From Bacilli bacterium (lineage in GTDB: Bacteria; Bacillota_I; Bacilli_A; RFN20; CAG-826): a DNA stretch of 64,000 nt. This document shows, one piece after another, positions 7,482 to 49,742 of this stretch. Position numbers and translations under genes: made by a program. The notes below the pieces were generated by a model. It was not told the origin of the DNA, did no database searches, and saw only the letters and a program-made list of their open reading frames with translations. Within the stretch, counting starts at the first letter, position 1. Every line of letters begins with the position of its first letter. The stretch is taken from positions 18,963 to 82,962 of the forward strand of contig JAFZRR010000062.1 in the NCBI GenBank assembly GCA_017619815.1. The letters are read 5' to 3'.

Positions 7482-7492
7482 TGATTATGTAA

Positions 7493-7572
7493 AAAGCAAA
7501 ACAGTAGTGATACTGTGACGCAAAACTATAGGGTCTTAATAAATAAGGGGTAAGACAGCCAGTTGCCTTGTG
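7493..7572 (+). promoter_or_regulatory. c-di-GMP-I (GEMM-I) riboswitch aptamer 1
   Basis: AGCAAAAC-[CAGUA-GUGA-UACUG]-UGACGCAAAACUAUAGGGUCUUA...UAAGACAGCCAGUUGCC. The P2 hairpin has a GNRA (GUGA) tetraloop. The hallmark 'GACGCAAA(A/G)CUAUAGGGUC' is present. The P3 stem is GUCUUA/UAAGAC, and P1 pairs GCAA with UUGC. All of this matches the GEMM-I consensus as in Vc2 ('GGGCAAACC...GGACGCAAAGCC...'). Confidence 0.8.
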
Positions 7573-7620
7573 GATAGAAACAAAACCACTGTTATGATGA
7601 TAGGCAATGGCTTTTTGTTT
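7560..7620 (+). terminator. riboswitch 1 expression-platform terminator
   Basis: The 5' arm CAGUUGCCU is the P1 3' strand. It can pair with AGGCAAUGG at about 7601-7609, which is followed by CUUUUUGUUUU. This is mutually exclusive with P1, which implies an ON switch. Confidence 0.5.
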
Positions 7621-7676
7621 TAGTCCTTGGGACACATATTAATAAAAGACAAGCACTATTAAATTCAATTTTCAAT

Positions 7677-17997: not shown

Positions 17998-20900
17998 ATG
18001 AAACAAAAACAACAATCCTCATTAAGAACATATATTTCTAAGAGTTACTTAGCTTTAATCATTATCGCAGCGGTGATGATTATTTCACTAGGTTTATTCT
18101 TAGTTGGTTTTATCGTTTTAGATGGAACGCTTCAATTAGTATTTGAAATAGTGGGTGGCTCTCTCTTACTACTTTCACTTATTGGAGTATTTGTTTTATT
18201 CATTCTTTCATCCGAAAAACAATATAACTTGTTCTATAACACCCTTTACAAGGGAAGTATGAAGAACTTAGAAGCTATTAAAGATAGAAATTTAGAAGTT
18301 GATCAAATTCCTGATGAATCAGTGAAAGAATTCCAAGAAATTAACGAAATCTTCAATGATATTAATGATCAATATAAAGGCAAAATTATTACTTCTAAAG
18401 AAGGCGATATTGAGAATATCCCATTAGAATACTTTGATGATGAAAAAGTATTGGTCAGCTATGACTCATTGATGAATAACATCGTTGATTTAATTATTGT
18501 TACCAAATCATTTAGAAATGCTTTAGTGGAAATCTATTATGACTTACAAGCGGAAGATATCTCTGAAAACGATGAGAAGAGAATCTTAAATAAGATTAAA
18601 GAAGGTCTTCAATATAAGAACTTATTAATTTCTAAGAACAAGAAACAAAATGGTTTCATTATTTATGTTCCTGTCTTTGATAGTGTTTCTCAACTTCAAG
18701 AAGAAATCGAAGGCTTGTTCCGTCACATTTCTATTATCAAGAGAACAAATGAAGGTAGAAAGATTGTCGCTCCAAAAGTAGCGATAGTTATTTATCCATA
18801 TTCTTCACCAGAAAATATGGTCAATGATTTAGCAATCGCAAAGAGAAGTGATAAGACAATTAATGTCTTCTTACCATCTAAAGAAAATAAAGCTAATAAT
18901 TCTCCATTATTCGAAAATCTCAATGTTAATGAATTAGCAAAGATATCTGAAAGATTGGATTTATTAGATATCGATGATGTTGATGGTCAAAAAGAAATCA
19001 ATCGCGCCTTGAATGATATTTGTAATTACTTCTCATTCACATCTGTTGGCTACGCAAAACTCAATAAAGTTAAGAAACAATTCCTTTGTGAATATTCATA
19101 TTCTCCAGAAGAAAAACACTTAGTATTACAAGAAAAACCAATCTCCGCGAAGTTTATCAATAAATTAGTGGAAGTTAAAGATAGTGATCAATCTTACTAT
19201 TTCAGCAATAGACAACACCTTAATGATTCTTTAGCGGCGTTTATCGATAGTCACGAAATCAAATCTGGTTTGTTCTATCTCGTTATGAAAGATGGTATCG
19301 CTGTCGGTGTTATTTACTATCTCAATAACGATAAAGAGATGGAATACGATTGTTCCATCAAGCAAGGTTTAATTAATATTTCCAACAAGATTGGTAATTA
19401 CATCAAATCTATTGATGATCAACATATCGCAAATATCAACGCGAAGAGATTCCAAGAAGTCTTAAAACTCAATAATGATATTCTCTATTCTGTTAACCCA
19501 GATGATTATTCATTATTCTTTGTGTCCGCAGCGCTTCAATCTATTTGTCCAAGTGCACAAATAGGTGAGAAGTGTCATAAAGCCTTATATGGTAGTGATA
19601 CTCCATGTAAAGCTTGTCCACTTGTGACCAAGAAACATATGGTGGAAATCTTAAAACGTCGTAAATTTGAAACTAGTGTCGTTTTACATAACTCCGAAGA
19701 TAAAGCGGAACACCTATACTTAAAACCAATGGAAAAGAATAAGAATACAAGTGACTTGTTCTCACCTGATTTCTTAATCAATTCCTATTACTCCTTCTGC
19801 TCATACTTAGAAGATGAATTCGCCTTAGAACATGAAGGTGAAATCTTATTCTTAAATATCGATAACGTTCCTCAATTAATTAAATCATTAGGTAACGATG
19901 GTTATATCAAGGCGATTAGAAACTTCTTTGATGCTATTAGAGAAGAAATTGATATGAACTTAACATTATATTTATATAAGAATGATAACTTTGCGTTATT
20001 ATTCCCAAGCAGTTCAAAAGAAGATGTTATCTCTTTAACCGAATCCTTGTATAGCCTTGCTAAACAAAATATGGTGGGTAGCAAACAAGCTGCATTAAAC
20101 ATTTCTTACTATGACTTCAAATACCCTGAATCAAGCAAGGAATATAAATTATGGATAAATCATGCCGAAAAAGTCATGACAGGTCTCAGAAGAGGCAAAA
20201 AGACCGATTTAATTTACTTTAATGAAGATAAGTACACTAGAAGTGCTTCTAGAGAAGAATTCATGCTTCAAAATGTTCTCGAAGCCTTCAAGAGAAAGAA
20301 ATACTTCATGGAATATCAACCAATTGTTGGCAATAGAGATAGAGTTATCCATGGTGCTGAATTATTGCTCAGATTAAACGATCCATTTACCAATGCTCCA
20401 CTTAACATTGGTGAGGCAATCAATATCGTGACCAAACACAACCGTATTGATTTGGTCGCAGAAGCTATGACTGATTGTCTAGAAAAATTATTCCAAGTTG
20501 CGGATTTACCATTCTTCCAATCCATGGGCCTAGAACATTTATCTGTGAACGTTGATTATCAAACATTATCTGATAAATCATTTATTGAAAGCTTTGATTC
20601 TTTAACCAAGAAACATAACGTTCCAAAAGGATTTATCTGCTTTGAAGTTCCTGAATCTGACATTATGGATCATTATGATGAATTTAGAGATTTACACTTC
20701 GAAAACGAAGTCTTGGTGTGTGACCAATATCATGGTGAACTCTTAAGACTTGACCAATTACAAGCTATTGGATTTAAAGAAGTTAAGATGTCTAGAGACG
20801 TTATCTTAAATATCATTAATGATGACGTTGCCTTACAACGCGCGAATGATGTTTGGAAGTTTGCAAACGAAATCGGTATGTTTGTGACATTTGTCGGTGT

Positions 20901-21051
20901 TGAAAAACGTCAACAAGCTGACTTATTACATGATGATGTCCGTGATAGTAACTTCCAAGGTCGATTCTTCTATTCCCCAATGAGTGAAGAGAAGTTCTTC
21001 AAGACATTACGTGAATCCTCAATTAAATCAATTGCGGATTTAGATAACTAA
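17998..21051 (+). CDS. large membrane-anchored protein with a C-terminal degenerate EAL domain (candidate c-di-GMP sensor)
   Basis: There are 2 N-terminal TM helices and a Cys cluster, 'CPSAQIGEKCHKALYGSDTPCKACP'. The C-terminus 'EYQPIVGNRDRVIHGAELLLRL' is EAL-like with the catalytic E retained, but the DDFG(T/A)G metal-binding motif is replaced by 'DQYHGE'. 'FVGVEKRQQ' and 'QGRFFYSP' are retained. Confidence 0.65.
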   Translation: MKQKQQSSLRTYISKSYLALIIIAAVMIISLGLFLVGFIVLDGTLQLVFEIVGGSLLLLSLIGVFVLFILSSEKQYNLFYNTLYKGSMKNLEAIKDRNLEVDQIPDESVKEFQEINEIFNDINDQYKGKIITSKEGDIENIPLEYFDDEKVLVSYDSLMNNIVDLIIVTKSFRNALVEIYYDLQAEDISENDEKRILNKIKEGLQYKNLLISKNKKQNGFIIYVPVFDSVSQLQEEIEGLFRHISIIKRTNEGRKIVAPKVAIVIYPYSSPENMVNDLAIAKRSDKTINVFLPSKENKANNSPLFENLNVNELAKISERLDLLDIDDVDGQKEINRALNDICNYFSFTSVGYAKLNKVKKQFLCEYSYSPEEKHLVLQEKPISAKFINKLVEVKDSDQSYYFSNRQHLNDSLAAFIDSHEIKSGLFYLVMKDGIAVGVIYYLNNDKEMEYDCSIKQGLINISNKIGNYIKSIDDQHIANINAKRFQEVLKLNNDILYSVNPDDYSLFFVSAALQSICPSAQIGEKCHKALYGSDTPCKACPLVTKKHMVEILKRRKFETSVVLHNSEDKAEHLYLKPMEKNKNTSDLFSPDFLINSYYSFCSYLEDEFALEHEGEILFLNIDNVPQLIKSLGNDGYIKAIRNFFDAIREEIDMNLTLYLYKNDNFALLFPSSSKEDVISLTESLYSLAKQNMVGSKQAALNISYYDFKYPESSKEYKLWINHAEKVMTGLRRGKKTDLIYFNEDKYTRSASREEFMLQNVLEAFKRKKYFMEYQPIVGNRDRVIHGAELLLRLNDPFTNAPLNIGEAINIVTKHNRIDLVAEAMTDCLEKLFQVADLPFFQSMGLEHLSVNVDYQTLSDKSFIESFDSLTKKHNVPKGFICFEVPESDIMDHYDEFRDLHFENEVLVCDQYHGELLRLDQLQAIGFKEVKMSRDVILNIINDDVALQRANDVWKFANEIGMFVTFVGVEKRQQADLLHDDVRDSNFQGRFFYSPMSEEKFFKTLRESSIKSIADLDN

Positions 21052-21202: not shown

Positions 21203-22516
21203 TTATTTCTCTTTCTTGACTGATTTCTTTTCTTTGCTTTTCCTGTTGATAATCAAACTCCTAAAGAAGTGCACTAAGAAGGTGATACAAACCACCAAGA
21301 CAACTATTTGAAGAATTGTGACGTTAAATAGAACCGCGATATATTTAGCCACTTTTGGTGCAAAATATGTACTGATTGCGGCGATTTCAAGTAACGAGAA
21401 GAATGCGCTTAATAGTGATATATATCCAACACCTAATTTATATGTATTGTTTTCTCTTCTGCTAACTCTAATGGTTTTAATCGCGTTAACAAATCTTAAG
21501 ATACCAAATGGAGCGATGATGAATAAGAATAATAAGATGTCTTTTCCTAATGTTGCGTCTGTTGTCATTAAGAATATTGCGGCGAATGTAATAACACCAG
21601 AGAAGAAGAAATAGGCAAAAGCATTGAATAAGAGTATAAAAGATGATTTGCGGTTTTCTGCAATTTTATTATCGCCAACTTGTTTCAATATCTTTCTGTG
21701 CCACAAGTAGTTGATTAATCTTATTAAACCTGTACCAAGATAGAATGCTGCTAAAACGATATAAACCCAGTGTTGTTTAGCATTTAATAAAGCAAGGATT
21801 GCTAGATACACTGTAAAGATTAATCCAAAGAACATTGCAACTTCATGTTCATTAAACCATCTAATGGTATGTTTGATTTTTGCCCCTGTAGAGAGTTCTT
21901 CTTTGGTTTTACTACGAATATCTGTGGATAACGCTAAAAGGGCGGCAATAATCGTAAAAGTGGCATTTAAGGCTACATCTATGATGTATACCCAGATAGG
22001 TTTATCACTAAAAGTGAATGTAAACGGATTTAAATTCTCTCCTGGGAAGAATTGATTCATTAACACTAATTCGAAAATAAGTATTAAATAAAATGAACTT
22101 AATAAATCATTATTACGATATGCATGTGAAAGTGGTGCATAGTTTTTCTTAATAGATATATGAAGTATTAATGAAATGAATAACTTTAATAACGCTACTC
22201 CACCAAAGATGAGATATGCAAGTGGCCAATATAACATTGTGTTATTTGGATCATTCCACAATGACATCACAAGTAAGTAGTCCATCATAATAACGACACT
22301 TATGACTTGGAATACACCTTGTACGCGCATGGCTTTATATTCATCTTTGATACCCATTGGAACAAAGATAAATAATCCTTCAAACATGAAGTGAACACCG
22401 ATAGTTATAAACCACCAGTTTTGAAGATATGAAAGATAAAAACAAAATCCGCCGATAGCGAAAGATGCTATAGCGGATATTATTTCTAATAAGATTGTTG
22501 AAGTTTTATTTTTCAT
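21203..22516 (-). CDS. polytopic membrane protein (about 12 TM), last gene of the riboswitch-2 operon
   Basis: It is hydrophobic throughout with a basic C-terminal tail, 'RKSKEKKSVKKEK'. No known family was recognised. Confidence 0.5.
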   Translation of the reverse strand: MKNKTSTILLEIISAIASFAIGGFCFYLSYLQNWWFITIGVHFMFEGLFIFVPMGIKDEYKAMRVQGVFQVISVVIMMDYLLVMSLWNDPNNTMLYWPLAYLIFGGVALLKLFISLILHISIKKNYAPLSHAYRNNDLLSSFYLILIFELVLMNQFFPGENLNPFTFTFSDKPIWVYIIDVALNATFTIIAALLALSTDIRSKTKEELSTGAKIKHTIRWFNEHEVAMFFGLIFTVYLAILALLNAKQHWVYIVLAAFYLGTGLIRLINYLWHRKILKQVGDNKIAENRKSSFILLFNAFAYFFFSGVITFAAIFLMTTDATLGKDILLFLFIIAPFGILRFVNAIKTIRVSRRENNTYKLGVGYISLLSAFFSLLEIAAISTYFAPKVAKYIAVLFNVTILQIVVLVVCITFLVHFFRSLIINRKSKEKKSVKKEK

Positions 22517-22566: not shown

Positions 22567-25500
22567 TCAAGGCGTATTATTAGCCGGAATGGTAATTGAT
22601 ATCGTGCCAGTGTAATAAGTTGTCGATACACCATTTACTACAACGACTAATGTAGTGGCGTTGTTATCGTATTTAAAGAAGTTGATTATCAATGGTTCTG
22701 TTAGAACAGTTTTTGTTGAGTCAATAGTAACTGTGTAAGTTGTTCCTTGGAATGTTACATTGATTCCAACCTTTTGACCTGTTGCTGTGACATCGTAATA
22801 AATACTTAATGCGGAAAAATCAACTTGTTGTCCTCCAGCAACCGAACCTGTAAATGCGCCTGTGTTGGCATCATATGAAGCGCTTCTATAATCAACTTTA
22901 CCTCCATAGCCAATGTTGCCAGGAACAGCATTAAATGTGAACGTAACGTTTTCAATATGAACATCTGGAGAAGCCCCTAAGACGACTAGATATTTAGTCA
23001 TATCAGGATCATCAGCGGAGCAGTATTTAAATGGTTCAACAGCATCACCTACACCCTTAATACATGCATAGGCTAATGATTGAATATTTATTGCATTGAT
23101 ATTAAGTAAATATGACTTCCGGTCATTTGAAGGGCTCGTATCAACTGCCCCTGCCTCAACCAGATTTTCCGTCGTACCATCCGCTAATTTAAAGTATGGT
23201 ATTGTACTTGTCGAAGTACATTCAAATATCAAGGTACCCAAATCCCTTGATCCGTTATTATCAATCAATAGTGTGATTGCATTTTTGAATTGAACAGATG
23301 GGTAGAAATTATCGCCATTTGAAGGTGCAGAAATTACTGATGGACTTTGATTCATTTTCATGTATGTAGAATGATATTCAATATTTGGACCAACAGCATC
23401 CATACGGAATGGTTCAAAGTCATTGATTAAATCACCAACATATGTTGCCTTGTCAGCACTTGATTGTGCTAATTTATAGAGCTGAATTGAGGTTTGATTG
23501 CCGGTAAAACATGAGAAGTATCCGCTGTTCCACCTTGAATAATATTGTATTTTATTATGCGTGTAATTGCCTTGTGAAACAATGCTTGCCGTTCCATCGG
23601 TTAAAATAGAAATTGACCAGTTGGCATTTCCGTTAGTATCTGGTGTTGCCTCCGTTCGTAAATAGTTTTGGCTGGACGAACAGGCATACAAGAAGCCATT
23701 TCCAGAGTCAAATCGCCAACCAGTTTCAGTTCGGACAATGGTAAATCGTTGTGCATTGCTCGGCACGTTTTGAGCTTTAACGTATGGCGGTGCAAAGTTT
23801 ACGCTCGACGATCGATTTCGATAGTTGCTCGCTTGCGAGCCCATAAAGTAGTGGGTCGGTGTATTACCGCTTCCTGTCTTTGCGGCAATCATGACTTGAT
23901 CACCACTTTTAATTTCGCTAACAATATTTACTCTCTTCCAAACTTCTATCAAAGCATCAAAATATTGAACTTTACTTTGTGTCGTATTGAAATACACGTT
24001 ATAAGAAGGATTGACTGTAAAATTTGTATATTTTGCATAATCTGTTGGACTATTTTCTACATCTGAACCTAATAAGTCATAATAAGTCACTGTTTTAAAT
24101 GGGTGAATCGTGCCTTGAATTTCAATTGTTTTTGAAATTGTAAAATGGACGTTTTGAATGGTTTGACCGATTTGTTGCTTGTAAATATAGAACCAACATC
24201 TAACATTTGGATATCCATCATAGTCGTTATTAACATTTTCATTACTAAATCCAGTTGCGCCAGCAGCAACTACTTCAGGTTTTGCTAGATATGAAGATAA
24301 TGAATATGTAGCGAAAACATTACTTCTAATGTTGTAACATAGATATCTATCTGGATCACCGACATTTTGGAATCTATATCTTGTATAATATCCAGATTGA
24401 ACATATGGATCGAATTTCCATTGCGAATAAGGAATTCTATTTGAGTGTCCTTCTTCGTAGATTGTGTCGTAGTCGAATGTTCTTAGCCAGTTGGATCCAT
24501 TGGTTCCGTGTTCATAAACACCGTCGCCTTTTGGAAATGCTAAATAACCAGTTCCGTCATACAAAGTAAAAATTGTTTTTCCATCATTTGGATCTGTTCC
24601 AACTTCGTCAAAAATAAGTTTGGCAACACCGGTTGTTTCGTTTAAAACATAACCGCTTGTGTCTCTAACTTCTTTAACTTGTAAAACAGCACGGTTATTT
24701 TGTGTTTGTGTTCCCATCGCATAGTCGAGAGAATATGTGCTTGTTTGTTCGCCCTTATAACCAGCAATAACTAAAGTTGAGTCATCTACGATTTCTGATG
24801 AGTAGGAAGTTAATTTATAGTTAATAGCATCAGTTAATGTTGTTGTTTGCTCTTCGATATAATCACCAATAGTAAAGAATCCACCAGGACATTGAGCAGT
24901 CATTTTGTGACCGCCAAAAGCGCCAGCAGCGTTTGTAATATTTGAACCTTGTAAAGCACCCTTGTATGGGCCAGCAGTACGTCCAGCATTAGCATCAAAG
25001 TCATCGTTAACGTTGCGCTCATTACCTGTGAATTTATTATCAACTGCATCATATGAAATTTGAGTTTTTGGACCTCCAATAGTGAATTTCATTGGCATAT
25101 GTCGTTTGTTTGTTTCAACTTCTATTCCTTCTTCTGGAACGAAAATAGGAGTATGAACTAAATTTGCAGCCAAATATGGTTCGTCTGAATTAACGTTTTG
25201 TGGTGAATATGTGCAAAGATATTTTTGCCCAACTGGAGAATAAATATAGTAATCATTTTCGCCTGAACATTCTGTAAAACGGGAAACACCGTTACTGCCA
25301 AAAGATGTTTTAAAGCAGAAATAATAATCATCCGTTTGTGGTGGAGTACTACTCGTCCATTCAACCGGTAACATCTTGTCGTAAGCACCGTTTGCGCCTG
25401 CAACATAATGCAAGAAATATTTTTTGGTAACACTGTTGACTGTTTGTTCAAAAGAAATAGTGAAACAGTTTAATTCAACTGTGCCTTGTGATGATTCGTT

Positions 25501-26883
25501 TGTGGCGACAACTTCAGCATATTTCCATTTTTCGTTTGTGGCATCATAGAAAATGTAAGAGCCGTCATTCATGCCATAGAAATCATATCTACTTTCATTA
25601 CCATGGTTAATTGGTTCTGTTGGATCACCATTTTCATCAACACCATATTCAATATATACTGGCTTTTCAGTTAAAATGTTTTCTGGTTCGACGTGTTCAA
25701 TTCCTTTATAGTGTTGAGCATTATCGTTCGGATCGTAATAACGGATATATTTAGATGAACCGGCATCACCAGAAGAGTAACCTATTGATGATAATGAATA
25801 TGGTTTTGTCCCGCTATTACCATCTTGTCCAATTGTGTAAACTTCATTTGAAGAAGAAACAGCATTGCTAAATGTTTTGCCTGGACTTGTTTCGCTTGTA
25901 TATCTTCTAGCTAATGGGTTGCTATAACCTGTTGAGTATGTATAGGCTAGTGCATCATATGCGTTAGATGCAACTAATTGAGATGTGTAACTACTAGAAT
26001 CAGATGTCGATTCAAGAGGTTCATCAGTATGACCAAAATAACCATATGTATTGATCATTTCATATGTGTTGTTTCTGTCGTTATATATAACGCAGTTGTT
26101 TAAATAAACGTTATAGAAAACATTTGGATTATAAACATGTCCTGCTAAATATCCAACATATACGTGAGATCTATGCGCGGCATGCCCAATAGAACCAGGA
26201 GCATCACCAACAGCACCACCAGCATTAATGGATGGAGAATCAAAATATAATTCATTCACGACAGCATTTGAGGCAACATAACCAAAAATGCCAACATCTG
26301 AATATCCAGAACCATCAATATGTAGATTTTGGACTGTTAAATTATGACCGATTATATGACCTTCAAAAGGATGTCTTGCAGATCCTATAGGAGCTAATGC
26401 TAAAGAACCACTGTAATACTCCATGTTTAAGTAAGGAGTATATTCGCCTTCTTGAATAACACCATTATCGTTGTAATCATAGAAAAGATAAGGATATTCT
26501 GTTGTTTGCTGACCGTGTGGAACACTTGATGGTTTGCCAAATTGTTTTCCAAATTCAAAATACGTATTATTATCGAAACCATATTCGCCACCTTCATGCA
26601 ATCTAACCAAATTGTAATAGTGGACTGGCCTTGTAATGACATATGGATTATTGGCACTACCATGAGGATAAACACTCTCATCAATTTCGCCATCTCTTCT
26701 ATCGAAGTAACTAGTCAAAATAGAACTAGGAATATTTGTTTCTGGCTCAATTGTTTCCATGGCGCTAAACCAAGAAACGGTCGAAATAATTAAGGCCGCA
26801 CTTAAAGTTGCAATCACAGTCGATAATAATGTGATTAATCTTGCTTTTTTACTTCTAAATATTTTTAATTTTAGCAATTTCAT
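22567..26883 (-). CDS. giant secreted/surface protein (1438 aa), S/T/N/Y-rich, with a SipW-cognate-type signal
   Basis: The N-terminus is 'MKLLKLKIFRSKKARLITLLSTVIATLSAALIISTVSWFSAME'. It is low-complexity and adhesin-like. It lies 18 nt downstream of the 1491-aa gene. Confidence 0.65.
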   Translation of the reverse strand: MKLLKLKIFRSKKARLITLLSTVIATLSAALIISTVSWFSAMETIEPETNIPSSILTSYFDRRDGEIDESVYPHGSANNPYVITRPVHYYNLVRLHEGGEYGFDNNTYFEFGKQFGKPSSVPHGQQTTEYPYLFYDYNDNGVIQEGEYTPYLNMEYYSGSLALAPIGSARHPFEGHIIGHNLTVQNLHIDGSGYSDVGIFGYVASNAVVNELYFDSPSINAGGAVGDAPGSIGHAAHRSHVYVGYLAGHVYNPNVFYNVYLNNCVIYNDRNNTYEMINTYGYFGHTDEPLESTSDSSSYTSQLVASNAYDALAYTYSTGYSNPLARRYTSETSPGKTFSNAVSSSNEVYTIGQDGNSGTKPYSLSSIGYSSGDAGSSKYIRYYDPNDNAQHYKGIEHVEPENILTEKPVYIEYGVDENGDPTEPINHGNESRYDFYGMNDGSYIFYDATNEKWKYAEVVATNESSQGTVELNCFTISFEQTVNSVTKKYFLHYVAGANGAYDKMLPVEWTSSTPPQTDDYYFCFKTSFGSNGVSRFTECSGENDYYIYSPVGQKYLCTYSPQNVNSDEPYLAANLVHTPIFVPEEGIEVETNKRHMPMKFTIGGPKTQISYDAVDNKFTGNERNVNDDFDANAGRTAGPYKGALQGSNITNAAGAFGGHKMTAQCPGGFFTIGDYIEEQTTTLTDAINYKLTSYSSEIVDDSTLVIAGYKGEQTSTYSLDYAMGTQTQNNRAVLQVKEVRDTSGYVLNETTGVAKLIFDEVGTDPNDGKTIFTLYDGTGYLAFPKGDGVYEHGTNGSNWLRTFDYDTIYEEGHSNRIPYSQWKFDPYVQSGYYTRYRFQNVGDPDRYLCYNIRSNVFATYSLSSYLAKPEVVAAGATGFSNENVNNDYDGYPNVRCWFYIYKQQIGQTIQNVHFTISKTIEIQGTIHPFKTVTYYDLLGSDVENSPTDYAKYTNFTVNPSYNVYFNTTQSKVQYFDALIEVWKRVNIVSEIKSGDQVMIAAKTGSGNTPTHYFMGSQASNYRNRSSSVNFAPPYVKAQNVPSNAQRFTIVRTETGWRFDSGNGFLYACSSSQNYLRTEATPDTNGNANWSISILTDGTASIVSQGNYTHNKIQYYSRWNSGYFSCFTGNQTSIQLYKLAQSSADKATYVGDLINDFEPFRMDAVGPNIEYHSTYMKMNQSPSVISAPSNGDNFYPSVQFKNAITLLIDNNGSRDLGTLIFECTSTSTIPYFKLADGTTENLVEAGAVDTSPSNDRKSYLLNINAINIQSLAYACIKGVGDAVEPFKYCSADDPDMTKYLVVLGASPDVHIENVTFTFNAVPGNIGYGGKVDYRSASYDANTGAFTGSVAGGQQVDFSALSIYYDVTATGQKVGINVTFQGTTYTVTIDSTKTVLTEPLIINFFKYDNNATTLVVVVNGVSTTYYTGTISITIPANNTP

Positions 26884-26901: not shown

Positions 26902-29900
26902 CTATGTTGATATTTTTGTATATGTTATTGTCAGATTCACTATTTGGCAGTTGTTATCATTAGTGACATATAACATAAAGTATGAATAACTTGTGTTTGT
27001 ATTTGTTAATGTAATTGTTGCACCTTTAACTGCTTTTGCTAAGTTTGTGGCATTTGACGGAGTAGTTAAAGCAGTTGCCCCATAACTAATACTTAATATT
27101 ACTTTTTCGGATGTGTTGTTTGAGTAAGTGAAAACAATTTGAGAAATATAATAACCACTTGGTGCACTAATATTTCTTAAATATGCACCAGTTTTACCGA
27201 ATAAAATATAAGTCGTAGATGATGGATTTGCTGCAGATGCTTTAGCACCATTTCCTCCACCGAAAACTAAACCAGCGCCATCACCCGTAAGAGTTTGATC
27301 GCCTTGCGTTCCTGTAATGCCATAGAAATTCTGTGTAAAATCAAGTGATATAACCACGGTATCGGATTGGCTTCCTCCGCTGCTAACCGTAATAGGTTGA
27401 GCACATGTTTTGCCTTGATATGTAATAGTTATAGAAGTATCGGTTGTTGTTAATTCATAAGATGTTGTTGGGCTGAATGTAAAGCCGCTCGAGTTGCTAG
27501 CATAAGAAACATCAGTTGTTGATCCATCATTGTAATGTAATGTGATTTCTAAACCAGTAGGATCAAATGTTTCTCCAGCTGTATATGCAATTTTTGTTGG
27601 AGCTGTTTTAACTGAAATGCTGACCAAAGAGACAACCGGTGCTACGTTTGTTTCGACTTTCTTATATAATTCAATACTCGATTGTGTGCTTGTGTATGGA
27701 ATGAAACGGCCACTTCCGTTGTTGTGATTGTATTGCAAACTACCACAGTCTGCATTTGTACTTGTTATTGTGGCTGTTCCACTGCTTATTGAAACAGTCC
27801 AAGTTCCAGTTCCGTTACTATCGTAGTTAATTTTCTTTGCTGCTTGGGTATATAATTGACCACTCGATGATGTAAATGTCCAAGCGCCTGTTGTACCGCC
27901 TACTGTAAATTCAACACCATCACATTTGAATGGAATTGTACCATTGTTATCAATTGTAACGGAGGCAGGCAATAACAAATCACCAGATTTTGCGCCAGCA
28001 ACCACATTGTATTGAGCACACCCAATTAATACTATGTCGCCAGCAGCTAATCCTGCAGTACTGGTAATCCTTTGATAAATATAATAGACAGGTCCTGTGC
28101 TAGACACAGTGATTGAATATGTCGTTTCTTTTGTAACACCACCTTCTGTATAAGTGATAGTAACTGTCTTTGAACCAGATGTTGACATATCTGGAGAACT
28201 AATTGTTAAATTTGGTGAGGAAGTGACATTTGCGGTCGTACCATCGCTATATGTTGCTGTAACAACACCATTTCCAATCGTAAATGTATCACCAACATTG
28301 AATGTTACTGTTTGTCCACTTATAGCAATTGATGATAATGTTTTAGTTAAATTTGACCAAGTTAAAGTGAATGTTGCTTCTACTGGATTGCCATTTGAAT
28401 CTAAATCAGTAGTGGTCGCTTTTATGGTTGCGCTTCCAGAAACAGAGTTAATAGAGATTTGTCCTGAACTTTGATTAATTGTTAATCCTGTTCCGCTTGT
28501 TATTGACCATGTAACATTGTTACTTGTTGTAGTATCGCTATATGTAACGAGTGCGGTTGGCGTCCAAACATATGGAATAGTTCCGTTTGAAACAGTCTTT
28601 GTTCCACTCGTTATATCGGTATTTCCATCTTTAATTGCTAATGACGTGACGGAAGCAAGTGTTCCTTGTTCGTAATAAATAGTGTAGCTTTCGCAATAAA
28701 GTGAGTTAACAGTTGCGGCAATTGTTAAAACAACATTTTGACCATTTTGAACTGTTAAATCATTAGTTATCATTGGTTCAACTGTGACGAAATTAGTTGA
28801 CCATGATCCATGCCAACTTGAATCATTAAAGTTAGCAGTGGCAATGGAAGAAATGGTGTTGCTTCCGACAACAGCGTTAAAATTACCAGCACCTTTATCG
28901 GAGTTGGATTTCATACTCAAAAGAATTCTTGTGATTTTATAACCTTTATAACCGCTTAAAGTTAAGGTCATTGAGTTACCTGCGGTTAATTGATATTTCT
29001 GATTATAAGTGGATGAATATATAGCACTCGAGCCAGATGGAACATCTCCTGATGCAGTAACTGCACTAGTAGATGTAATTGTGTAAGTTGCATATGTTTC
29101 CGAACCATCAGAAACCCTAATAATGCATGTATCTTTAATATTTGTGCCGTGAATAGTTGCAGTAAGGGTAGATGTACCTGCCGCCAAACCATAAACAGTA
29201 ATTGTTCCATTTTGTATTTCGAAGTTAGAACCTGTGTATGTGGTGGATGAAGTTAATACGGTTGCATCGGAGCTTGAAAATGATAAAGAACCTGATGTTC
29301 CTATGATTGACCAATCGACATCTCCATTAAACGAGAAGTCTAATGTTAAACTCGAGTTCAAAGTAATTACTTCATTCGTTCCATCAATATCTATATTGTA
29401 ATTGTAAATAGTGATTTTAAACGTCTTATCAGCGTAGAAGTCACCTAATGTTGCGCCGCCATTATAATGGACAAGAACTGAAAGGTTATTTCCTGAAATA
29501 TTTAATGTTTGACCATTAGCATAATATGTTCCGCCAATACTAAAAACACAATCTGATGTGACATCGATCTCACCAACTGTTGCAAAGTGTCCTGTAACGA
29601 CCAAACCACTTGTGTCGAATTGATCACCTTTAACATATGTTGTTTTAGTTGGTTGAGTTGTAATGGCAATATATTCAAGAACATCTGCTAAAACAGTGAT
29701 AGGGAATGAACCATTTTTTGTAGTACCTCTATCCGTATATGTAACATTAATGGTTTTTGGACTACCAATGTTAGTGAATACAGTTTTATTTGGAATTAAT
29801 GTTCCTTCGCCTGAAGTCGTGTAAGAGCAATCGGAAGTTACATTAAGTGTAAACGTATCATTATTAGGTTTTGTATATGTTGCGATACATGTTATGCCCC

Positions 29901-31332
29901 TTAAACTGAAATATTCACCGACACTATAAATTGCATCTGAACCTTGTGGTCCGGTAATAGATAAACTTGTTAAGGAAGCACTAATGATGTCATTTTCATG
30001 GAATCGATATAAACTAATGTCATTTTTGGACGTTCCATAATACGCAAATTTGGAATTAGCAGTGTCATATTGCATTTGCATTGAACTGTGTGCGGCAGAT
30101 TTAACAACAGCAGAAGTCCCGTTATATGCTAATGTATTAGACATATTTTCAGCACTAGAATTAGAAATGATGCCGTCTGTTGTTGTGTTGTTACCAACAT
30201 AGTAGTTGTTATCTGTGCGGTATGTTCCATTTGCTCTATCATATGTTAAAGAGGCATCATCAATTGCATCAGTTGAATAAACTGTGTCTTTTCCGTTTGA
30301 TATATAATCACCAATATTTAATTGGTTGTTGTTTGTATTGATACCACTTGATGATCCAATTGTTTCAGAGCCTGTTGCTTTTGAACCATCTAAAATTTGT
30401 TGGCTAGAATCTGTAATGTATGAAGATAAATATTGGCCGCTATAAGAGCCGCCAACATCATTCATACGAATGTATTTGCCTGTATTATTATTTCCATAGG
30501 TTGAAGTAGAAAAATCTCTAATATAGAAATCAATATTAGAAATATCACCAACAAGATTATGAATGGCATCTGTGGAATTAATATGGTCTTCAACGAAGCC
30601 ATCGACTAATTTTTCATTATATGAACACTCAATATAAACGATTGATTTTTTAATAGTACCAACATTATATAGTTCAGGAACAATTGTAATCTTGTTGCCG
30701 TTTTCTGGATCAACAGGTTGATTGTTCATCAAAGAGATAAACGTTGATGGTGTTTTTCTAGAAGCAAAATACGCAATAGAAGTTCTATACATTGCGTCTT
30801 CTTCATCTTTATAGGTTCCTTGGTCTTCTGAAATGCCAACACCAATTGGTATTGCAGTATCACTATTAAATGGTGTGTATGAAGTAGCGATGCATTGGAA
30901 TTGAACAACGTTCGAAGTTAATAATCTAATGCCATCAGCATCTGTTAATGTTGAACTAGCTAATTTGCGAACATCAATTTCAACTGCCTTCGTGGTTGTA
31001 TCCAATCCATTAGGAAAAGATAATTCGGTTCTGATAACGATATTTGAATAAACATTTCTAGCTTTAATGTATTGGTCGTAATCAGGCAATACAAATTCGC
31101 TTGCATCATTAGTAAAAGCAACACCCTTCTTTAGGTCGTCGTCATATTTTAGAATTGTAAAATTATCAATAATTAAATTTCTTGATGCCGATTTAATTGA
31201 AAGATTGGTGGAGTGTGTAACTTTATTAGAATTGTACCAGGCGAACGTGGCTGCGCCTGCAACTGCAACAGAAAAAGAAAGATTGGCGATTGCGCCTGCT
31301 AATGCTAAAACTTTCTTTTTACTTAGACTCAT
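26902..31332 (-). CDS. giant secreted/surface protein with multiple Big_3 (bacterial Ig-like) repeats and a SipW-cognate-type signal
   Basis: The likely start is ATG 31332, 'MSLSKKKVLALAGAIANLSFSVAVAGAATFAWYNSN'. The track start at 31377 lies inside the riboswitch terminator loop. Repeated Big_3-like units include 'TKTTYVKGDQFDTSGLVVTGHFATVGEIDVTSD', 'TKIAYTAGETFDPTGLEITLHYNDGSTTDVS' and 'VTFNVGDTFTIGNGVVTATYSDGTTANVT'. Confidence 0.7.
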   Translation of the reverse strand: MSLSKKKVLALAGAIANLSFSVAVAGAATFAWYNSNKVTHSTNLSIKSASRNLIIDNFTILKYDDDLKKGVAFTNDASEFVLPDYDQYIKARNVYSNIVIRTELSFPNGLDTTTKAVEIDVRKLASSTLTDADGIRLLTSNVVQFQCIATSYTPFNSDTAIPIGVGISEDQGTYKDEEDAMYRTSIAYFASRKTPSTFISLMNNQPVDPENGNKITIVPELYNVGTIKKSIVYIECSYNEKLVDGFVEDHINSTDAIHNLVGDISNIDFYIRDFSTSTYGNNNTGKYIRMNDVGGSYSGQYLSSYITDSSQQILDGSKATGSETIGSSSGINTNNNQLNIGDYISNGKDTVYSTDAIDDASLTYDRANGTYRTDNNYYVGNNTTTDGIISNSSAENMSNTLAYNGTSAVVKSAAHSSMQMQYDTANSKFAYYGTSKNDISLYRFHENDIISASLTSLSITGPQGSDAIYSVGEYFSLRGITCIATYTKPNNDTFTLNVTSDCSYTTSGEGTLIPNKTVFTNIGSPKTINVTYTDRGTTKNGSFPITVLADVLEYIAITTQPTKTTYVKGDQFDTSGLVVTGHFATVGEIDVTSDCVFSIGGTYYANGQTLNISGNNLSVLVHYNGGATLGDFYADKTFKITIYNYNIDIDGTNEVITLNSSLTLDFSFNGDVDWSIIGTSGSLSFSSSDATVLTSSTTYTGSNFEIQNGTITVYGLAAGTSTLTATIHGTNIKDTCIIRVSDGSETYATYTITSTSAVTASGDVPSGSSAIYSSTYNQKYQLTAGNSMTLTLSGYKGYKITRILLSMKSNSDKGAGNFNAVVGSNTISSIATANFNDSSWHGSWSTNFVTVEPMITNDLTVQNGQNVVLTIAATVNSLYCESYTIYYEQGTLASVTSLAIKDGNTDITSGTKTVSNGTIPYVWTPTALVTYSDTTTSNNVTWSITSGTGLTINQSSGQISINSVSGSATIKATTTDLDSNGNPVEATFTLTWSNLTKTLSSIAISGQTVTFNVGDTFTIGNGVVTATYSDGTTANVTSSPNLTISSPDMSTSGSKTVTITYTEGGVTKETTYSITVSSTGPVYYIYQRITSTAGLAAGDIVLIGCAQYNVVAGAKSGDLLLPASVTIDNNGTIPFKCDGVEFTVGGTTGAWTFTSSSGQLYTQAAKKINYDSNGTGTWTVSISSGTATITSTNADCGSLQYNHNNGSGRFIPYTSTQSSIELYKKVETNVAPVVSLVSISVKTAPTKIAYTAGETFDPTGLEITLHYNDGSTTDVSYASNSSGFTFSPTTSYELTTTDTSITITYQGKTCAQPITVSSGGSQSDTVVISLDFTQNFYGITGTQGDQTLTGDGAGLVFGGGNGAKASAANPSSTTYILFGKTGAYLRNISAPSGYYISQIVFTYSNNTSEKVILSISYGATALTTPSNATNLAKAVKGATITLTNTNTSYSYFMLYVTNDNNCQIVNLTITYTKIST

Positions 31333-31353
31333 TTTTAATTCTTCTTTCCTTAG

Positions 31354-31385
31354 AAATAAAAAACCGAAGTTTTTCATCCCCTCGG
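31354..31385 (-). terminator. riboswitch 2 expression-platform terminator
   Basis: On the - strand, CCGAGG-GGAUGAAAAA-CUUCGG is followed by UUUUUUAUUU. The 5' arm overlaps the 3' end of P1 (GUUGCC|GAGG). Confidence 0.55.
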
Positions 31386-31450
31386 CAACTGGCTGTCTTC
31401 GATTAAGACCCTATAGCTTTGCGTCACCACATCACTGTGGGTTTGCTATT
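31382..31450 (-). promoter_or_regulatory. c-di-GMP-I (GEMM-I) riboswitch aptamer 2
   Basis: On the - strand: AGCAAACC-[CACA-GUGA-UGUG]-GUGACGCAAAGCUAUAGGGUCUUAAUCGAAGACAGCCAGUUGCC. The P2 base pairs covary relative to aptamer 1 (CAGUA/UACUG becomes CACA/UGUG) while the conserved nucleotides are identical. Confidence 0.8.
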
Positions 31451-31460
31451 AACGTCTTAT

Positions 31461-31489
31461 ATTATATTTATATAAATAATATCACGCAA
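31461..31489 (-). promoter_or_regulatory. sigma-A-like promoter driving riboswitch 2
   Basis: On the - strand, TTGCGT is followed by a 17-nt spacer and TATAAT. The aptamer starts about 10 nt downstream of the -10. Confidence 0.45.
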
Positions 31490-31587
31490 GTGTTTTTGTA
31501 TACGCGTATATGAATAAAGATTTATAAAAGTGCAAAATGTATGTACAAAAGATGTACAAATGGTATTATTATTCATGAGGTGATATT

Positions 31588-32466
31588 ATGCCCACAGTTT
31601 ATAAAACCAATAGAATCAACATTAGATTATCTAATGAAGATAAAGACTTGTTAGAAGCCGCAGCAAAGAGAAATAGACAAAGTCTATCTTCTTACATTAT
31701 CAGCGCGGCTATTAGACAAGCAGATCATTCTGGTTATATAGAAGAATCTAATAACTCTCCATATAAATCCATCTGCAGCAAAGAAATTTTAGATTTTTAT
31801 TATTCTGCGGAGAATTATGTTTTAAGTTGTAGCAATGATTTAGAGAGAGTAAAGGAACTATATTTATCTACTATTAAGAGGAACAAAGAGGAAGCTAATA
31901 CATTCGCGAATAAATTAGTTTTAGTGAGGAAACAATTAGATGATGACTTAACCTTCTTCATGGATAGTGACCCTGCTGTGGATTCAAGAGAAGAAGTCAT
32001 ACTTGCGTATCCTGGTTTTAAGGCTATTAGATTTCATAGAATTGCTCATGAATTATATCTATTAAATGAAAAGCTGTTCGCAAGAATTATTGCAGAAGAG
32101 GCTCATAAAGAAACTGGTGTAGATATTCATCCAGGTGCTACAATTGGATCACCTTTCTTTATTGACCATGGCACCGGTATTGTTATTGGTGAAACCACAG
32201 TCATTGGTCAAAGAGTAAAGATATATCAATCAGTGACATTGGGAGCGTTATCATTAGCCAAAGGCAGTAAGATGAAAGGTGAAAAACGCCACCCTACAAT
32301 TGGTAATGATGTTACTATATATGCTGGTGTATCTATTTTAGGTGGAGATGTACAAATTGGTGATCGTGTCACAATTGGTAGTAACGTCTTCTTAACCGAA
32401 TCAATACCCGCGAATACGCGCGTATTAAATGGAAAACCAGAATTGGTTCTCCAAGAAAGAAAATAA
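31588..32466 (+). CDS. serine O-acetyltransferase (CysE-like) with an N-terminal RHH/TacA(DUF1778)-like extension
   Basis: 'LAYPGFKAIRFHRIAHELY', 'DIHPGATIGSPFFIDHGTGIVIGETTVIG' and 'IGNDVTIYAGVSILGGDVQIGDRVTIG' are CysE hexapeptide motifs. The N-terminus 'TNRINIRLSNEDKDLLEAAAKRNRQSLSSYII' resembles ribbon-helix-helix antitoxins. Confidence 0.7.
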   Translation: MPTVYKTNRINIRLSNEDKDLLEAAAKRNRQSLSSYIISAAIRQADHSGYIEESNNSPYKSICSKEILDFYYSAENYVLSCSNDLERVKELYLSTIKRNKEEANTFANKLVLVRKQLDDDLTFFMDSDPAVDSREEVILAYPGFKAIRFHRIAHELYLLNEKLFARIIAEEAHKETGVDIHPGATIGSPFFIDHGTGIVIGETTVIGQRVKIYQSVTLGALSLAKGSKMKGEKRHPTIGNDVTIYAGVSILGGDVQIGDRVTIGSNVFLTESIPANTRVLNGKPELVLQERK

Positions 32467-49722: not shown

Positions 49723-49742
49723 TTAAAGGAGCAAATGAAATT

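What the first reader, a model, noticed from the sequence alone, without database searches (positions are those of the whole stretch)
31354..31490. Second c-di-GMP-I riboswitch (minus strand) with covarying helices, controlling the giant-adhesin operon
The - strand aptamer at 31384-31447 has the same conserved nucleotides as aptamer 1. The P2 base pairs are switched in a compensatory manner (CACA-GUGA-UGUG versus CAGUA-GUGA-UACUG) and the P3 loop is shortened. That is structure-preserving covariation, the strongest in-sequence evidence that these are functional RNAs and not chance matches. A CCGAGG...CUUCGG hairpin plus U6AU3 directly follows and overlaps the P1 3' end. The annotated ATG at 31377 lies inside that terminator loop, so the real start of the 1491-aa gene is probably ATG 31332 (MSLSKKK...). 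The promoter is TTGCGT-17-TATAAT.
Basis: partly seen in the sequence, partly recalled or inferred. Interest (0 to 1): 0.75.

Follow-up and report, generated by a model that had tools for sequence, protein, structure and literature searches.

The report
Cyclic-di-GMP riboswitch before surface-protein operon
This is a genuine RNA switch of a well-known class that senses the bacterial signal c-di-GMP and most likely turns on an operon for two very large secreted proteins when the signal is high. It is an ordinary example that a standard database search detects, not a new kind of element.

Summary
Rfam's c-di-GMP-I model (RF01051) matches window 31457..31381 (- strand) at 57.6 bits (threshold 35, E 1.2e-08). 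A second copy lies at 7485..7570 (+).

The same aptamer sits about 50 nt upstream of the orthologous gene in every related locus where the upstream DNA was recovered. Those leaders are 83-93% identical, against 67-76% for the start of the coding region.

- **Terminator:** the hairpin is C92-G97 / CUUCGG (31385..31364) followed by U6AU3. It uses the ligand-pairing C92 and the two P1 bases C93 and G94. Aptamer and terminator therefore exclude each other, which is an ON (antitermination) design. More distant paralogs make this plain: their terminator 3' arm pairs with GCCAGUUGCC inside the aptamer.
- **Start codon:** the true start is ATG 31332. ATG 31377 lies in the terminator loop.
- **Promoter:** TTGCGT-17-TATAAT is conserved in the orthologs.

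Two refinements. The base at the G20 ligand contact is A, as in the Bacillus thuringiensis Bc2 ON switch that controls an adhesin, so some cGAMP cross-recognition cannot be excluded. "Adhesin" is unproven: the family has only Ig-like domains and no name.

Verdict: new member of a known kind, low to moderate interest.

The parts
31484..31489 (-). -35 hexamer TTGCGT of the riboswitch promoter
   Evidence: Read. TTGCG is invariant in 10 aligned orthologous intergenic regions. No transcript data.
31461..31466 (-). -10 hexamer TATAAT, 17 nt after the -35. The inferred transcription start is about 31456-31453.
   Evidence: ATAAATATAAT is invariant. The start site is inferred from spacing only.
31381..31457 (-). 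c-di-GMP-I aptamer (Rfam RF01051 match)
   Evidence: 57.6 bits against a threshold of 35, E 1.2e-08, full-length model match.
31453..31454 (-). P1 5' strand (C13 G14). It pairs with C93 G94 at 31384-31383.
   Evidence: Register taken from the RF03167 structure line. Pair 13-94 is C-G in 10 sequences, U-G in 4 and A-U in 1. Pair 14-93 is G-C in all 18.
31447..31447 (-). Position 20 (contacts the first base of the ligand): A here, G in Vc2
   Evidence: It lies 27 nt 5' of A47, as in Vc2 (20/47) and Bc2 (A11/A38; PMC4933901). A47 was fixed from the RF01051 and RF03167 consensus sequences.
31426..31441 (-). P2 hairpin CCCACA-GUGA-UGUGGU with a GNRA tetraloop at 31435-31432
   Evidence: Four of 6 pairs show changes on both sides among paralogs. 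The loop is GUGA, GUAA, GCGA or GCAA across loci.
31420..31420 (-). A47, the base that intercalates between the two ligand bases
   Evidence: First A after GACGC. Invariant in 18 sequences.
31387..31418 (-). P3 hairpin with a truncated tip (loop AAUCG, 31404-31400)
   Evidence: The distal loop varies in length and sequence among orthologs (0-11 alignment columns filled).
31385..31385 (-). C92, the Watson-Crick partner of the second ligand guanine. It is also the first base of the terminator stem.
   Evidence: for the register, for the terminator stem.
31364..31385 (-). Intrinsic terminator hairpin CCGAGG / GGAUGAAAAA / CUUCGG
   Evidence: -7.0 kcal/mol. An equivalent hairpin (GCCGAGG with CCGCGGC, CUCCGGC or CCAUCGGC) is present in all orthologs.
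31354..31363 (-). U-tract U6AU3
   Evidence: UUUUUAUUU is conserved in the orthologs.
31347..31351 (-). Shine-Dalgarno-like AAGGA
   Evidence: Conserved, but the spacing to the ATG is long (about 12-14 nt).
26902..31332 (-). Gene 1: 1476-aa protein with an N-terminal hydrophobic leader and one Big_3 domain. True start is ATG 31332.
   Evidence: P0001 in the public collection is identical and starts at this ATG.
22567..26883 (-). Gene 2: 1438-aa protein, no Pfam or PDB match, 18 nt after gene 1
   Evidence: A 1303-1501-aa gene follows gene 1, wherever it was recovered whole, in all related loci.
21203..22516 (-). Gene 3: 437-aa protein with hydrophobic segments, probably the last gene of the operon
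   Evidence: Operon membership is inferred from the 50-nt gap and shared strand.
7485..7621 (+). Sister riboswitch: aptamer 7485-7570. Its terminator 3' arm GGCAAUGGC (7603-7611) pairs with GCCAGUUGCC (7558-7567). U-tract 7612-7621.
   Evidence: -13.6 kcal/mol. Promoter TTGACA-18-TATATT at 7452-7481.

Best explanation
This is a class I c-di-GMP (GEMM-I) riboswitch that controls transcription termination and works as an ON switch.

Transcription starts a few bases after the TATAAT box, so the RNA begins almost at the aptamer. P2 and P3 fold first.

- **c-di-GMP present:** the ligand is clamped at the three-helix junction by A20, A47 and C92, and the two-base-pair P1 (C13-G94, G14-C93) closes. 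C92, C93 and G94 are then unavailable. The terminator stem loses its three G-C base pairs, and polymerase reads through into the 1476-aa, 1438-aa and 437-aa genes.
- **c-di-GMP absent:** C92-G97 pair with CUUCGG just ahead of U6AU3, and transcription stops about 100 nt from the start.

What is shown: family membership, conservation, the physical overlap of the two structures, the start codon, and c-di-GMP enzymes in the same window. What is inferred: the transcription start, ligand identity, the direction and size of the response, and the role of the proteins.
For: - **Membership:** RF01051 at 57.6 bits against a threshold of 35.
- **Conservation:** the aptamer is found about 50 nt upstream of the orthologous gene in all 13 loci scanned with Rfam. 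It is also seen by eye in the 7 further leaders that reach the aptamer core. The leader is 83-93% identical against 67-76% for the first 900 nt of the coding region, and the differences cluster in the P3 tip and the terminator loop.
- **Structure:** 94.7% of cells pair in 18 sequences, against 25-51% when partners are slid. Five pairs change on both sides.
- **Overlap:** the terminator stem starts at C92.
- **Paralogs:** in aptamer 1, L002a, L002b and L003 the terminator 3' arm pairs with GCCAG(U/C)UGCC inside the aptamer (-13.6 to -19.3 kcal/mol). It follows the U-to-C change in L002a.
- **Energies:** P2+P3 is -15.0 kcal/mol, with P1 -12.9, with the terminator -22.0. The gap is within reach of nanomolar ligand binding.
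- **Not a gene-end terminator:** no co-directional gene lies upstream, so the terminator does not end another gene.
- **Signalling enzymes in the window:** a canonical GGDEF cyclase (GHDQGD...RIGGDEF, 3315-4466) and EAL proteins (15718-17253 and 17998-21051).
- **Precedent:** Bc2 of B. thuringiensis is class I, has A at the same ligand contact, is an ON switch by antitermination, responds to c-di-GMP and controls an adhesin (PMC4933901). In ON-type GEMM switches the aptamer and terminator exclude each other; in the OFF-type Cd1 they coexist (PMC9262584).
Against: - The terminator hairpin is weak: 6 bp with one G-U, a 10-nt loop, -7.0 kcal/mol.
- The terminator and the ligand-bound aptamer (P1 plus C92) share only C92, C93 and G94; P2 and P3 are not shared. 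In the minimum-energy fold, P2, P3 and the terminator coexist.
- P1 is only 2 bp, and the canonical tetraloop-receptor part of P3 is missing.
- Orthologs contribute no changes on both sides of a pair. The 5' arm of the terminator never varies, and most orthologs carry an A-G mismatch in the stem.
- A at position 20 lowers c-di-GMP affinity in Vc2 from picomolar to 53 nM and admits cGAMP (PMC6140456).
- In C. difficile all functional class I switches are OFF, and several predicted ones do nothing (PMC6366702).
- There are no transcript or binding data.
Confidence: 0.8

Rival explanations
1. The fold is the same but the ligand differs. Because position 20 is A, the switch senses 3'3'-cGAMP as the Geobacter GEMM-Ib switches do, or senses c-di-GMP and cGAMP alike.
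For: A at position 20 in both window aptamers and in all close orthologs. Vc2 G20A binds c-di-GMP at 53 nM and cGAMP at 120 nM. Natural A20 switches range from cGAMP-selective to bispecific (PMC6140456).
Against: Bc2 has the same A and responds to c-di-GMP in vitro and in vivo (PMC4933901). The A20 aptamer Cbe 1-2 binds c-di-GMP 15-fold better than cGAMP (PMC6140456). The window encodes a canonical GGDEF with the guanine-specifying Asp, plus EAL enzymes. No cGAMP synthase was seen among the proteins scanned, which are only part of one 64-kb window.
Confidence: 0.1
2. It is an OFF switch. Without ligand an antiterminator holds the terminator 3' arm, and ligand binding frees it so that termination occurs.
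For: In this window AAUCGAAG (31404-31397, P3 tip and 3' strand) can pair with CUUCGGUU (31369-31362) over 8 bp (read). All seven functional C. difficile class I switches are OFF (PMC6366702). P2, P3 and the terminator can coexist in the minimum-energy fold.
Against: That complementarity is absent in every ortholog, where the P3 tips differ and the 3' arm is CCGCGGC. The terminator 5' arm contains C92, C93 and G94, which the bound aptamer needs. In the paralogs the terminator consumes 9-11 nt of the aptamer, which is an unambiguous ON design.
Confidence: 0.06
3. The aptamer is decayed or non-responsive. The hairpin plus U-tract is then just a constitutive leaky attenuator.
For: Truncated P3 without a recognisable 11-nt receptor, a 2-bp P1 and a weak terminator. 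Five of 16 predicted C. difficile c-di-GMP riboswitches are non-functional (PMC6366702).
Against: The ligand contacts and junction bases are invariant across loci whose proteins are only 50-63% identical. The non-coding leader is better conserved than the coding sequence, and the GNRA loop is kept while its N and R bases vary. Non-functional C. difficile copies are reported as poorly conserved (PMC6366702).
Confidence: 0.05
4. The relevant hairpin is the longer A-tract/U-tract stem GGGGAUGAAAAAC-UUCG-GUUUUUUAUUUCU, which does not touch the aptamer. Termination would then be independent of the ligand.
For: It is the minimum-energy fold once the U-tract is included (-10.7 kcal/mol). The window's A-U pair is replaced by G-C in the orthologs (AAAAGC-CGCG-GCUUUU).
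Against: At the moment of termination the U-tract is still in the RNA-DNA hybrid and cannot be part of the stem (established mechanism of intrinsic termination). No U-tract follows this longer stem. L004 has an A-C mismatch in it. It does not exist in the paralogous leaders, whose only strong stem uses the aptamer.
Confidence: 0.04

Closest known systems
Bc2 RNA of Bacillus thuringiensis BMB171 (class I c-di-GMP riboswitch upstream of cap, the collagen adhesion protein; PMC4933901)
   Same: Class I aptamer. Adenine at the contact for the first ligand base (A11 in Bc2, 31447 here). Cytosine partner for the second base. An intrinsic terminator directly before the gene. ON logic by antitermination. 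It lies upstream of a large surface protein in a Firmicute.
   Different: Bc2 lies 76 nt from its transcription start and has a 40-90 nt expression platform. Here the RNA starts at the aptamer and the platform is about 30 nt, sharing only 3 nt with the ligand-bound aptamer. P3 is truncated here. The downstream protein is unrelated to Cap, with no LPXTG motif and no collagen-binding domain found. Nothing has been tested experimentally here.
Vc2 of Vibrio cholerae (reference structure of the class; Smith et al. 2009, as cited in PMC6140456)
   Same: Three-helix junction, GCAAA and GACGCAAA junction strands, A47, C92, and a GNRA tetraloop on P2.
   Different: Vc2 has G20, a long P3 with a tetraloop receptor and picomolar affinity. 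It does not act through a terminator (PMC6366702).
Cd1 (Cdi-1-3) of Clostridioides difficile, upstream of flgB
   Same: Class I, transcriptional control in a Firmicute, and a very short or absent P1 (PMC9262584).
   Different: Cd1 is an OFF switch in which aptamer and terminator coexist and an antiterminator competes (PMC9262584, PMC6366702). It represses motility genes, whereas this switch most likely activates surface-protein genes.
GEMM-Ib cGAMP riboswitches (Geobacter pilM, Gs1761)
   Same: Adenine at position 20. ON switch with mutually exclusive aptamer and terminator (PMC9262584, PMC6140456).
   Different: Those sense 3'3'-cGAMP, sit in genomes with Hypr-GGDEF enzymes and have a stable P1. 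Here the neighbouring enzymes are of the canonical c-di-GMP type.
Aptamer 1 of the same window (7485-7570, +)
   Same: Same class, A20, identical junction and P3-base sequence, GUGA loop, ON-type terminator. The downstream proteins carry the same N-terminal leader.
   Different: Longer P3, a different P2 sequence, and an expression platform about 55 nt long with an extra hairpin. Its terminator pairs with 10 nt of the aptamer (-13.6 kcal/mol, against -7.0 here).

Membership tests
c-di-GMP-I riboswitch (GEMM-I, Rfam RF01051) | Covariance-model score at or above the curated gathering score | tested here: met
   57.6 bits against 35, E 1.2e-08, model positions 1-87.
c-di-GMP-I riboswitch (GEMM-I, Rfam RF01051) | P2 and P3 hairpins joined by the conserved strands GCAAA, GACGCAAA and GCC | tested here: met
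   All junction bases are invariant in 18 aligned sequences. 94.7% of cells pair.
c-di-GMP-I riboswitch (GEMM-I, Rfam RF01051) | Base-pair covariation that supports the helices | tested here: met
   Five pairs change on both sides (4 in P2, 1 in P1); at most 1 of 500 shuffles reaches this. All such changes come from three paralogous copies. P3 is invariant or changes on one side only.
c-di-GMP-I riboswitch (GEMM-I, Rfam RF01051) | Ligand contacts G20, A47 and C92 (Vc2 numbering) | tested here: inconclusive
   A47 (31420) and C92 (31385) are present. Position 20 (31447) is A, not G. The same A occurs in the validated c-di-GMP switch Bc2 (PMC4933901).
c-di-GMP-I riboswitch (GEMM-I, Rfam RF01051) | GNRA tetraloop on P2 docking into a receptor in P3 | tested here: inconclusive
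   The GUGA loop is present and is GNRA in all loci. The model's distal P3 (13 positions) is replaced by 3 nt. Docking onto the conserved CU:AG pairs of the P3 stem is my inference.
c-di-GMP-I riboswitch (GEMM-I, Rfam RF01051) | Specific binding of c-di-GMP | not testable with these tools
   Needs in-line probing, ITC or a gel shift.
Transcriptional ON riboswitch (ligand-dependent antitermination) | Intrinsic terminator (stem plus U-tract) between aptamer and start codon | tested here: met
   31385-31354, -7.0 kcal/mol, U6AU3. Conserved in the orthologs.
Transcriptional ON riboswitch (ligand-dependent antitermination) | The terminator stem uses nucleotides that the ligand-bound aptamer needs | tested here: met
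   C92, C93 and G94 are shared. Nine to 11 nt are shared in the paralogs.
Transcriptional ON riboswitch (ligand-dependent antitermination) | More read-through when the ligand is present | not testable with these tools
   Needs in vitro transcription or reporter assays.
GEMM-Ib (3'3'-cGAMP riboswitch) | Adenine at position 20 | tested here: met
   A at 31447. This is necessary but not sufficient: Bc2 and Cbe 1-2 carry it and bind c-di-GMP (PMC4933901, PMC6140456).
GEMM-Ib (3'3'-cGAMP riboswitch) | A cGAMP-producing enzyme (Hypr GGDEF or DncV-type) in the organism | tested here: inconclusive
   The only active-looking GGDEF in the window has the canonical Asp (GHDQGD). No CD-NTase was found among the proteins scanned. 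Only 64 kb of the genome is available.
SipW-dependent (TasA-type) signal peptide on the regulated proteins | Match to the NCBIfam signal-peptide model, or a cognate peptidase nearby | tested here: inconclusive
   No NCBIfam hit for four N-terminal peptides even at E 10. A SipW-like peptidase is encoded at 14917-15696 (NF046067, E 1.3e-12, 47.6 bits against a cut-off of 190). The leader KKK...T[FI]AWY is shared by proteins of both riboswitch operons.

The most novel reading that the evidence does not exclude
The most novel reading not excluded has two parts.

1. The two A20-type riboswitches at the ends of a roughly 24-kb island (7.4-31.5 kb) form one regulon for a matrix or fibre system that has not been described, in uncultured rumen and gut Bacilli. 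In this system giant 1,400-1,500-aa proteins and small 360-aa proteins share a TasA-like leader that a SipW-like peptidase in the island would cleave.
2. The A20 aptamers respond to 3'3'-cGAMP as well as to c-di-GMP.
Probability: 0.12. Interest if true: 0.5.

Novelty: new member of a known kind. Interest (0 to 1): 0.25.

Why it matters
It corrects the start of a 1476-aa gene. It assigns a regulatory input (high c-di-GMP turns expression on) to a family of giant, unnamed secreted proteins found only in metagenome-assembled Bacilli from rumen and gut, which gives a handle on their role in attachment or matrix formation.

It adds a compact example of a class I ON switch: about 100 nt from transcription start to U-tract, a 2-bp P1, and only 3 nt shared between the ligand-bound aptamer (P1 plus C92) and the terminator. 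It is also another natural A20 aptamer on which the c-di-GMP versus cGAMP specificity rules could be tested.

None of this changes how the class is understood.

Tried and rejected
- **Scan tools:** the consensus promoter and terminator scans missed both real features, because the -35 matches 3 of 6 and the loop is 10 nt. I read them directly and checked them by conservation.
- **Alternative hairpin:** RNAfold on the leader including the U-tract prefers an A-tract/U-tract hairpin. I rejected it as the terminator on mechanistic and comparative grounds.
- **Reference-genome scan:** it returned only 3 related loci. The metagenome scan and exact-protein look-ups supplied the rest.
- **Papers not held:** the primary papers on position 20 (Smith 2009 and 2010, Kellenberger 2015, Nelson 2015, Ren 2015). 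I fixed the numbering instead from the RF01051 and RF03167 consensus sequences and from the Bc2 numbering (PMC4933901).
- **What the proteins are:**
  - Pfam gives only Big_3.
  - NCBIfam gives nothing.
  - PDB sequence search gives nothing useful.
  - Source names are absent or 'hypothetical'.
  - Pfam on 11 N-terminal domains gives nothing.
  - The AlphaFold model of residues 1-345 reached mean pLDDT 50.5, too low for a fold search, so none was run.
- **Signal-peptide model:** the NCBIfam search gave no signal-peptide match to the shared leader.
- **OFF-switch antiterminator:** I considered the window-specific pairing of the P3 tip with the terminator 3' arm and rejected it because no ortholog has it.

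Full report
**Is the feature there?**

Yes. A scan of the 64-kb window against all 4227 Rfam families at curated thresholds returns only two hits, both to RF01051 (c-di-GMP-I). One is at 31457..31381 on the minus strand: 57.6 bits against a threshold of 35, E 1.2e-08, full-length. The other is at 7485..7570 on the plus strand at 63.4 bits.

- TTGCGT (31489-31484), 17 nt, TATAAT (31466-31461)
- the aptamer
- CCGAGG (31385-31380), a 10-nt loop GGAUGAAAAA (31379-31370) that holds ATG 31377, and CUUCGG (31369-31364)
- U6AU3 (31363-31354)
- AAGGA (31351-31347)
- ATG 31332

The simple consensus scans missed both the promoter and the terminator. The -35 matches TTGACA at only three positions, and the loop exceeds the scan's 8-nt limit.

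**Anatomy in standard numbering**

The consensus of the GGC variant model (RF03167) differs from RF01051 by G for A at the first base after GACGC. In the Bc2 paper the contacts are A11, C37/A38 and C89 (PMC4933901). Both place A47 at that base, position 20 exactly 27 nt upstream, and C92 at the first C of the GCC that follows P3. In the window this gives:

| Element | Window coordinates (- strand) |
|---|---|
| P1 | C13 G14 (31454-31453) with C93 G94 (31384-31383) |
| Position 20 | A at 31447 |
| P2 | 31441-31426, GUGA loop |
| A47 | 31420 |
| P3 | 31418-31387, with only a 5-nt tip |
| C92 | 31385 |

So two of the three ligand contacts are canonical and the third is A instead of G. The sister aptamer at 7485 and all close orthologs also have A20. 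One distant relative (L003) has G.

**Related sequences**

The downstream protein has about 40 relatives, all from metagenomes or metagenome-assembled Bacilli and none named. The reference-genome scan gave three loci: "Bacilli bacterium MAG020", a rumen Bacilli MAG and an Erysipelotrichaceae MAG. The metagenome scan and exact-protein look-ups gave the rest.

Rfam finds a class I aptamer about 50 nt upstream of the gene in all 13 loci scanned. The further leaders read carry the same sequence.

The non-coding leader is 83-93% identical to its orthologs, while the best-conserved part of the coding region is 67-76% identical. The leader differences sit in the P3 tip, the terminator loop and the terminator 3' arm. 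The promoter hexamers are invariant or nearly so. That is the pattern of a functional RNA, not a chance match.

**Covariation**

I took 18 distinct sequences (this aptamer, 14 orthologs and 3 paralog types) and counted pairs for the structure P1/P2/P3.
- 94.7% of cells are standard pairs, against 25-51% when partners are slid by one to three columns.
- Five pairs change on both sides, four in P2 and one in P1. At most 1 of 500 shuffles reaches this.
- All these changes on both sides come from aptamer 1, L002b and L003. The orthologs are too similar to add any, and P3 is invariant or changes on one side only.

It remains the main covariation evidence. Family membership rests chiefly on the covariance-model score.

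**Expression platform and direction**

Cut before the U-tract, the RNA folds with P2, P3 and a hairpin C92-G97/CUUCGG of -7.0 kcal/mol. Orthologs have GCCGAGG paired with CCGCGGC, CUCCGGC or CCAUCGGC, at -7.2 to -8.3 kcal/mol. The stem therefore begins at the very cytosine that must pair with the ligand, and it includes both P1 bases.

Nearest-neighbour energies are -15.0 for P2+P3, -12.9 with P1 closed and -22.0 with the terminator. P1 needs the ligand to form, and the roughly 9 kcal/mol gap is what nanomolar binding can supply.

The paralogous leaders settle the design. In aptamer 1, L002a, L002b and L003 the arm just before the U-tract pairs with GCCAG(U/C)UGCC, which is 9-11 nt of the aptamer's P3 3' strand plus C92/C93 (-13.6 to -19.3 kcal/mol). 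It tracks the U-to-C change in L002a.

Mutually exclusive aptamer and terminator is the ON architecture described for pilM. In the OFF switch Cd1 the two coexist and an antiterminator competes (PMC9262584).

I looked for an antiterminator. The window has an 8-bp match between the P3 tip and the terminator 3' arm, but no ortholog shares it. RNAfold prefers a longer A-tract/U-tract hairpin once the U-tract is included. That stem cannot exist while the U-tract is in the transcription hybrid, and nothing U-rich follows it.

**Start codon and operon**

ATG 31377 is in frame with ATG 31332. However:
- the public collection already holds the 1476-aa form (P0001)
- 36 homologs align from the Met that corresponds to 31332
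- the -45 ATG occurs only in this window, and several orthologs have a stop 6-21 nt upstream of the conserved ATG

Gene 2 (1438 aa) starts 18 nt after gene 1, and a 437-aa hydrophobic protein follows after 50 nt. Gene 1 followed by a gene of comparable size (1303-1501 aa where it was recovered whole) is conserved.

**Which ligand?**

A20 is the state that makes Vc2 bispecific (53 nM c-di-GMP, 120 nM cGAMP) and that typifies cGAMP switches. It is not sufficient for cGAMP selectivity, because the A20 aptamer Cbe 1-2 binds c-di-GMP at 30 nM and cGAMP at 463 nM (PMC6140456). Bc2, with the same A, responds to c-di-GMP in vitro and in vivo (PMC4933901).

The window itself encodes:
- a membrane GGDEF protein with the canonical guanine-specifying Asp (GHDQGD...RIGGDEF)
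- an EAL protein at 15718-17253
- a degenerate GGDEF-EAL protein at 17998-21051

No cGAMP synthase appeared among the proteins scanned.

**What is regulated?**

"Giant adhesin" is plausible but unproven. Gene 1 has a single Big_3 domain, and relatives add Big_2 or Flg_new. There is no sortase motif at the C-terminus, and NCBIfam, the PDB and source names give nothing. An AlphaFold model of the conserved N-terminal 345 residues was too poor to use (pLDDT 50.5).

One link is worth noting. The N-terminal leader of gene 1 (KKKVLALAGAIANLSFSVAVAGAATFAWYN) recurs in gene 2 and in the two roughly 360-aa proteins downstream of aptamer 1. It resembles the leaders of TasA-type proteins from my own knowledge. 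A distant SipW-like signal peptidase is encoded between the two operons, although the NCBIfam search returned no signal-peptide hit for these N-termini.

**Comparison and verdict**

The closest known system is Bc2 of B. thuringiensis. It shares the class, the A at the first ligand contact, the ON logic through a terminator, and a position upstream of a large surface protein in a Firmicute (PMC4933901, PMC6366702).

This element differs only in being more compact:
- transcription starts at the aptamer
- P1 is 2 bp
- the P3 tip is truncated
- only 3 nt are shared between the ligand-bound aptamer and a weak terminator
- the protein family it precedes is different

It is a new member of a known kind. 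My additions are the direction of the switch, the A20 state, the comparative evidence, and a caution about the word "adhesin".

Noticed in passing
window 7452-7621 (+): The sister c-di-GMP-I riboswitch has a near-consensus promoter (TTGACA-18-TATATT, 7452-7481), A20, and an ON-type platform. GGCAAUGGC (7603-7611) pairs with GCCAGUUGCC (7558-7567) ahead of U5GU4. A rumen Bacilli MAG (L002 14570-14654) has the same design.
   Followed up: partly
window 31332-31240 (-), 26883-26790 (-), 8440-8560 (+), 9537-9650 (+): Proteins downstream of both riboswitches share an N-terminal leader: basic residues, a hydrophobic stretch, then T[FI]AWY or TVSWF. Pairwise BLASTP gives E 1e-4 and 8e-4. It looks like a TasA/SipW-type signal peptide, but the NCBIfam search gave no signal-peptide hit for it.
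   Followed up: partly
window 14917-15696 (+): A 259-aa protein with an LTDSMSP motif matches SipW (NF046067, E 1.3e-12) and archaeal-type signal peptidase I, both far below the curated cut-offs. It lies between the two riboswitch-controlled operons.
   Followed up: partly
window 3315-4466 (+), 15718-17253 (+), 17998-21051 (+): c-di-GMP enzymes cluster here: a membrane GGDEF cyclase with canonical motifs, an EAL protein, and a degenerate GGDEF-EAL protein. The EAL genes lie on the same strand as, and downstream of, the aptamer-1 operon. If they are co-transcribed, that would give negative feedback. Operon limits were not determined.
   Followed up: no
window 31541-31560 and 31588-32466 (+): The divergent gene encodes a ribbon-helix-helix domain (TacA/RelB-like) fused to a serine O-acetyltransferase; it passes the EpsC cut-off at 155 bits against 150. 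The gene is syntenic in 7 related loci. Two tandem ATGTACAAA repeats, 11 nt apart and almost invariant in the orthologs, overlap its likely -35. This could be an auto-operator.
   Followed up: partly
L003 2384-2458 (+): The Erysipelotrichaceae-MAG copy scores as the c-di-GMP-I-GGC variant (RF03167, 60.1 bits against a threshold of 59). Yet it has A, not G, at the variant-defining position 47, and G at position 20. The call probably reflects its short P3 and not a variant binding pocket.
   Followed up: partly
window 10637-14903 (+): An AAA_5 ATPase gene followed by a DUF2357 gene looks like a McrBC-type restriction pair inserted between the aptamer-1 genes and the peptidase and EAL genes.
   Followed up: no
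window 31397-31404 and 31362-31369 (-): In this window only, the P3 tip and 3' strand AAUCGAAG is complementary to the terminator 3' arm CUUCGGUU over 8 bp. No ortholog shares this, so it is probably fortuitous.
   Followed up: yes
window 31380-31382 (-) and orthologous leaders: The three bases AGG after G94 are invariant in all close orthologs although they lie outside the aptamer model core. Most orthologs keep an A-G or A-C mismatch opposite A95 in the terminator stem, whereas the window has A-U. Selection may keep the terminator weak. This is unexplained.
   Followed up: no
window 43101-56214 (+): Three clostripain-family (Peptidase_C11) proteins are encoded here, two of them over 1000 aa with Big_2 repeats. 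They are further large secreted proteins in the neighbourhood, with no riboswitch hit upstream.
   Followed up: no
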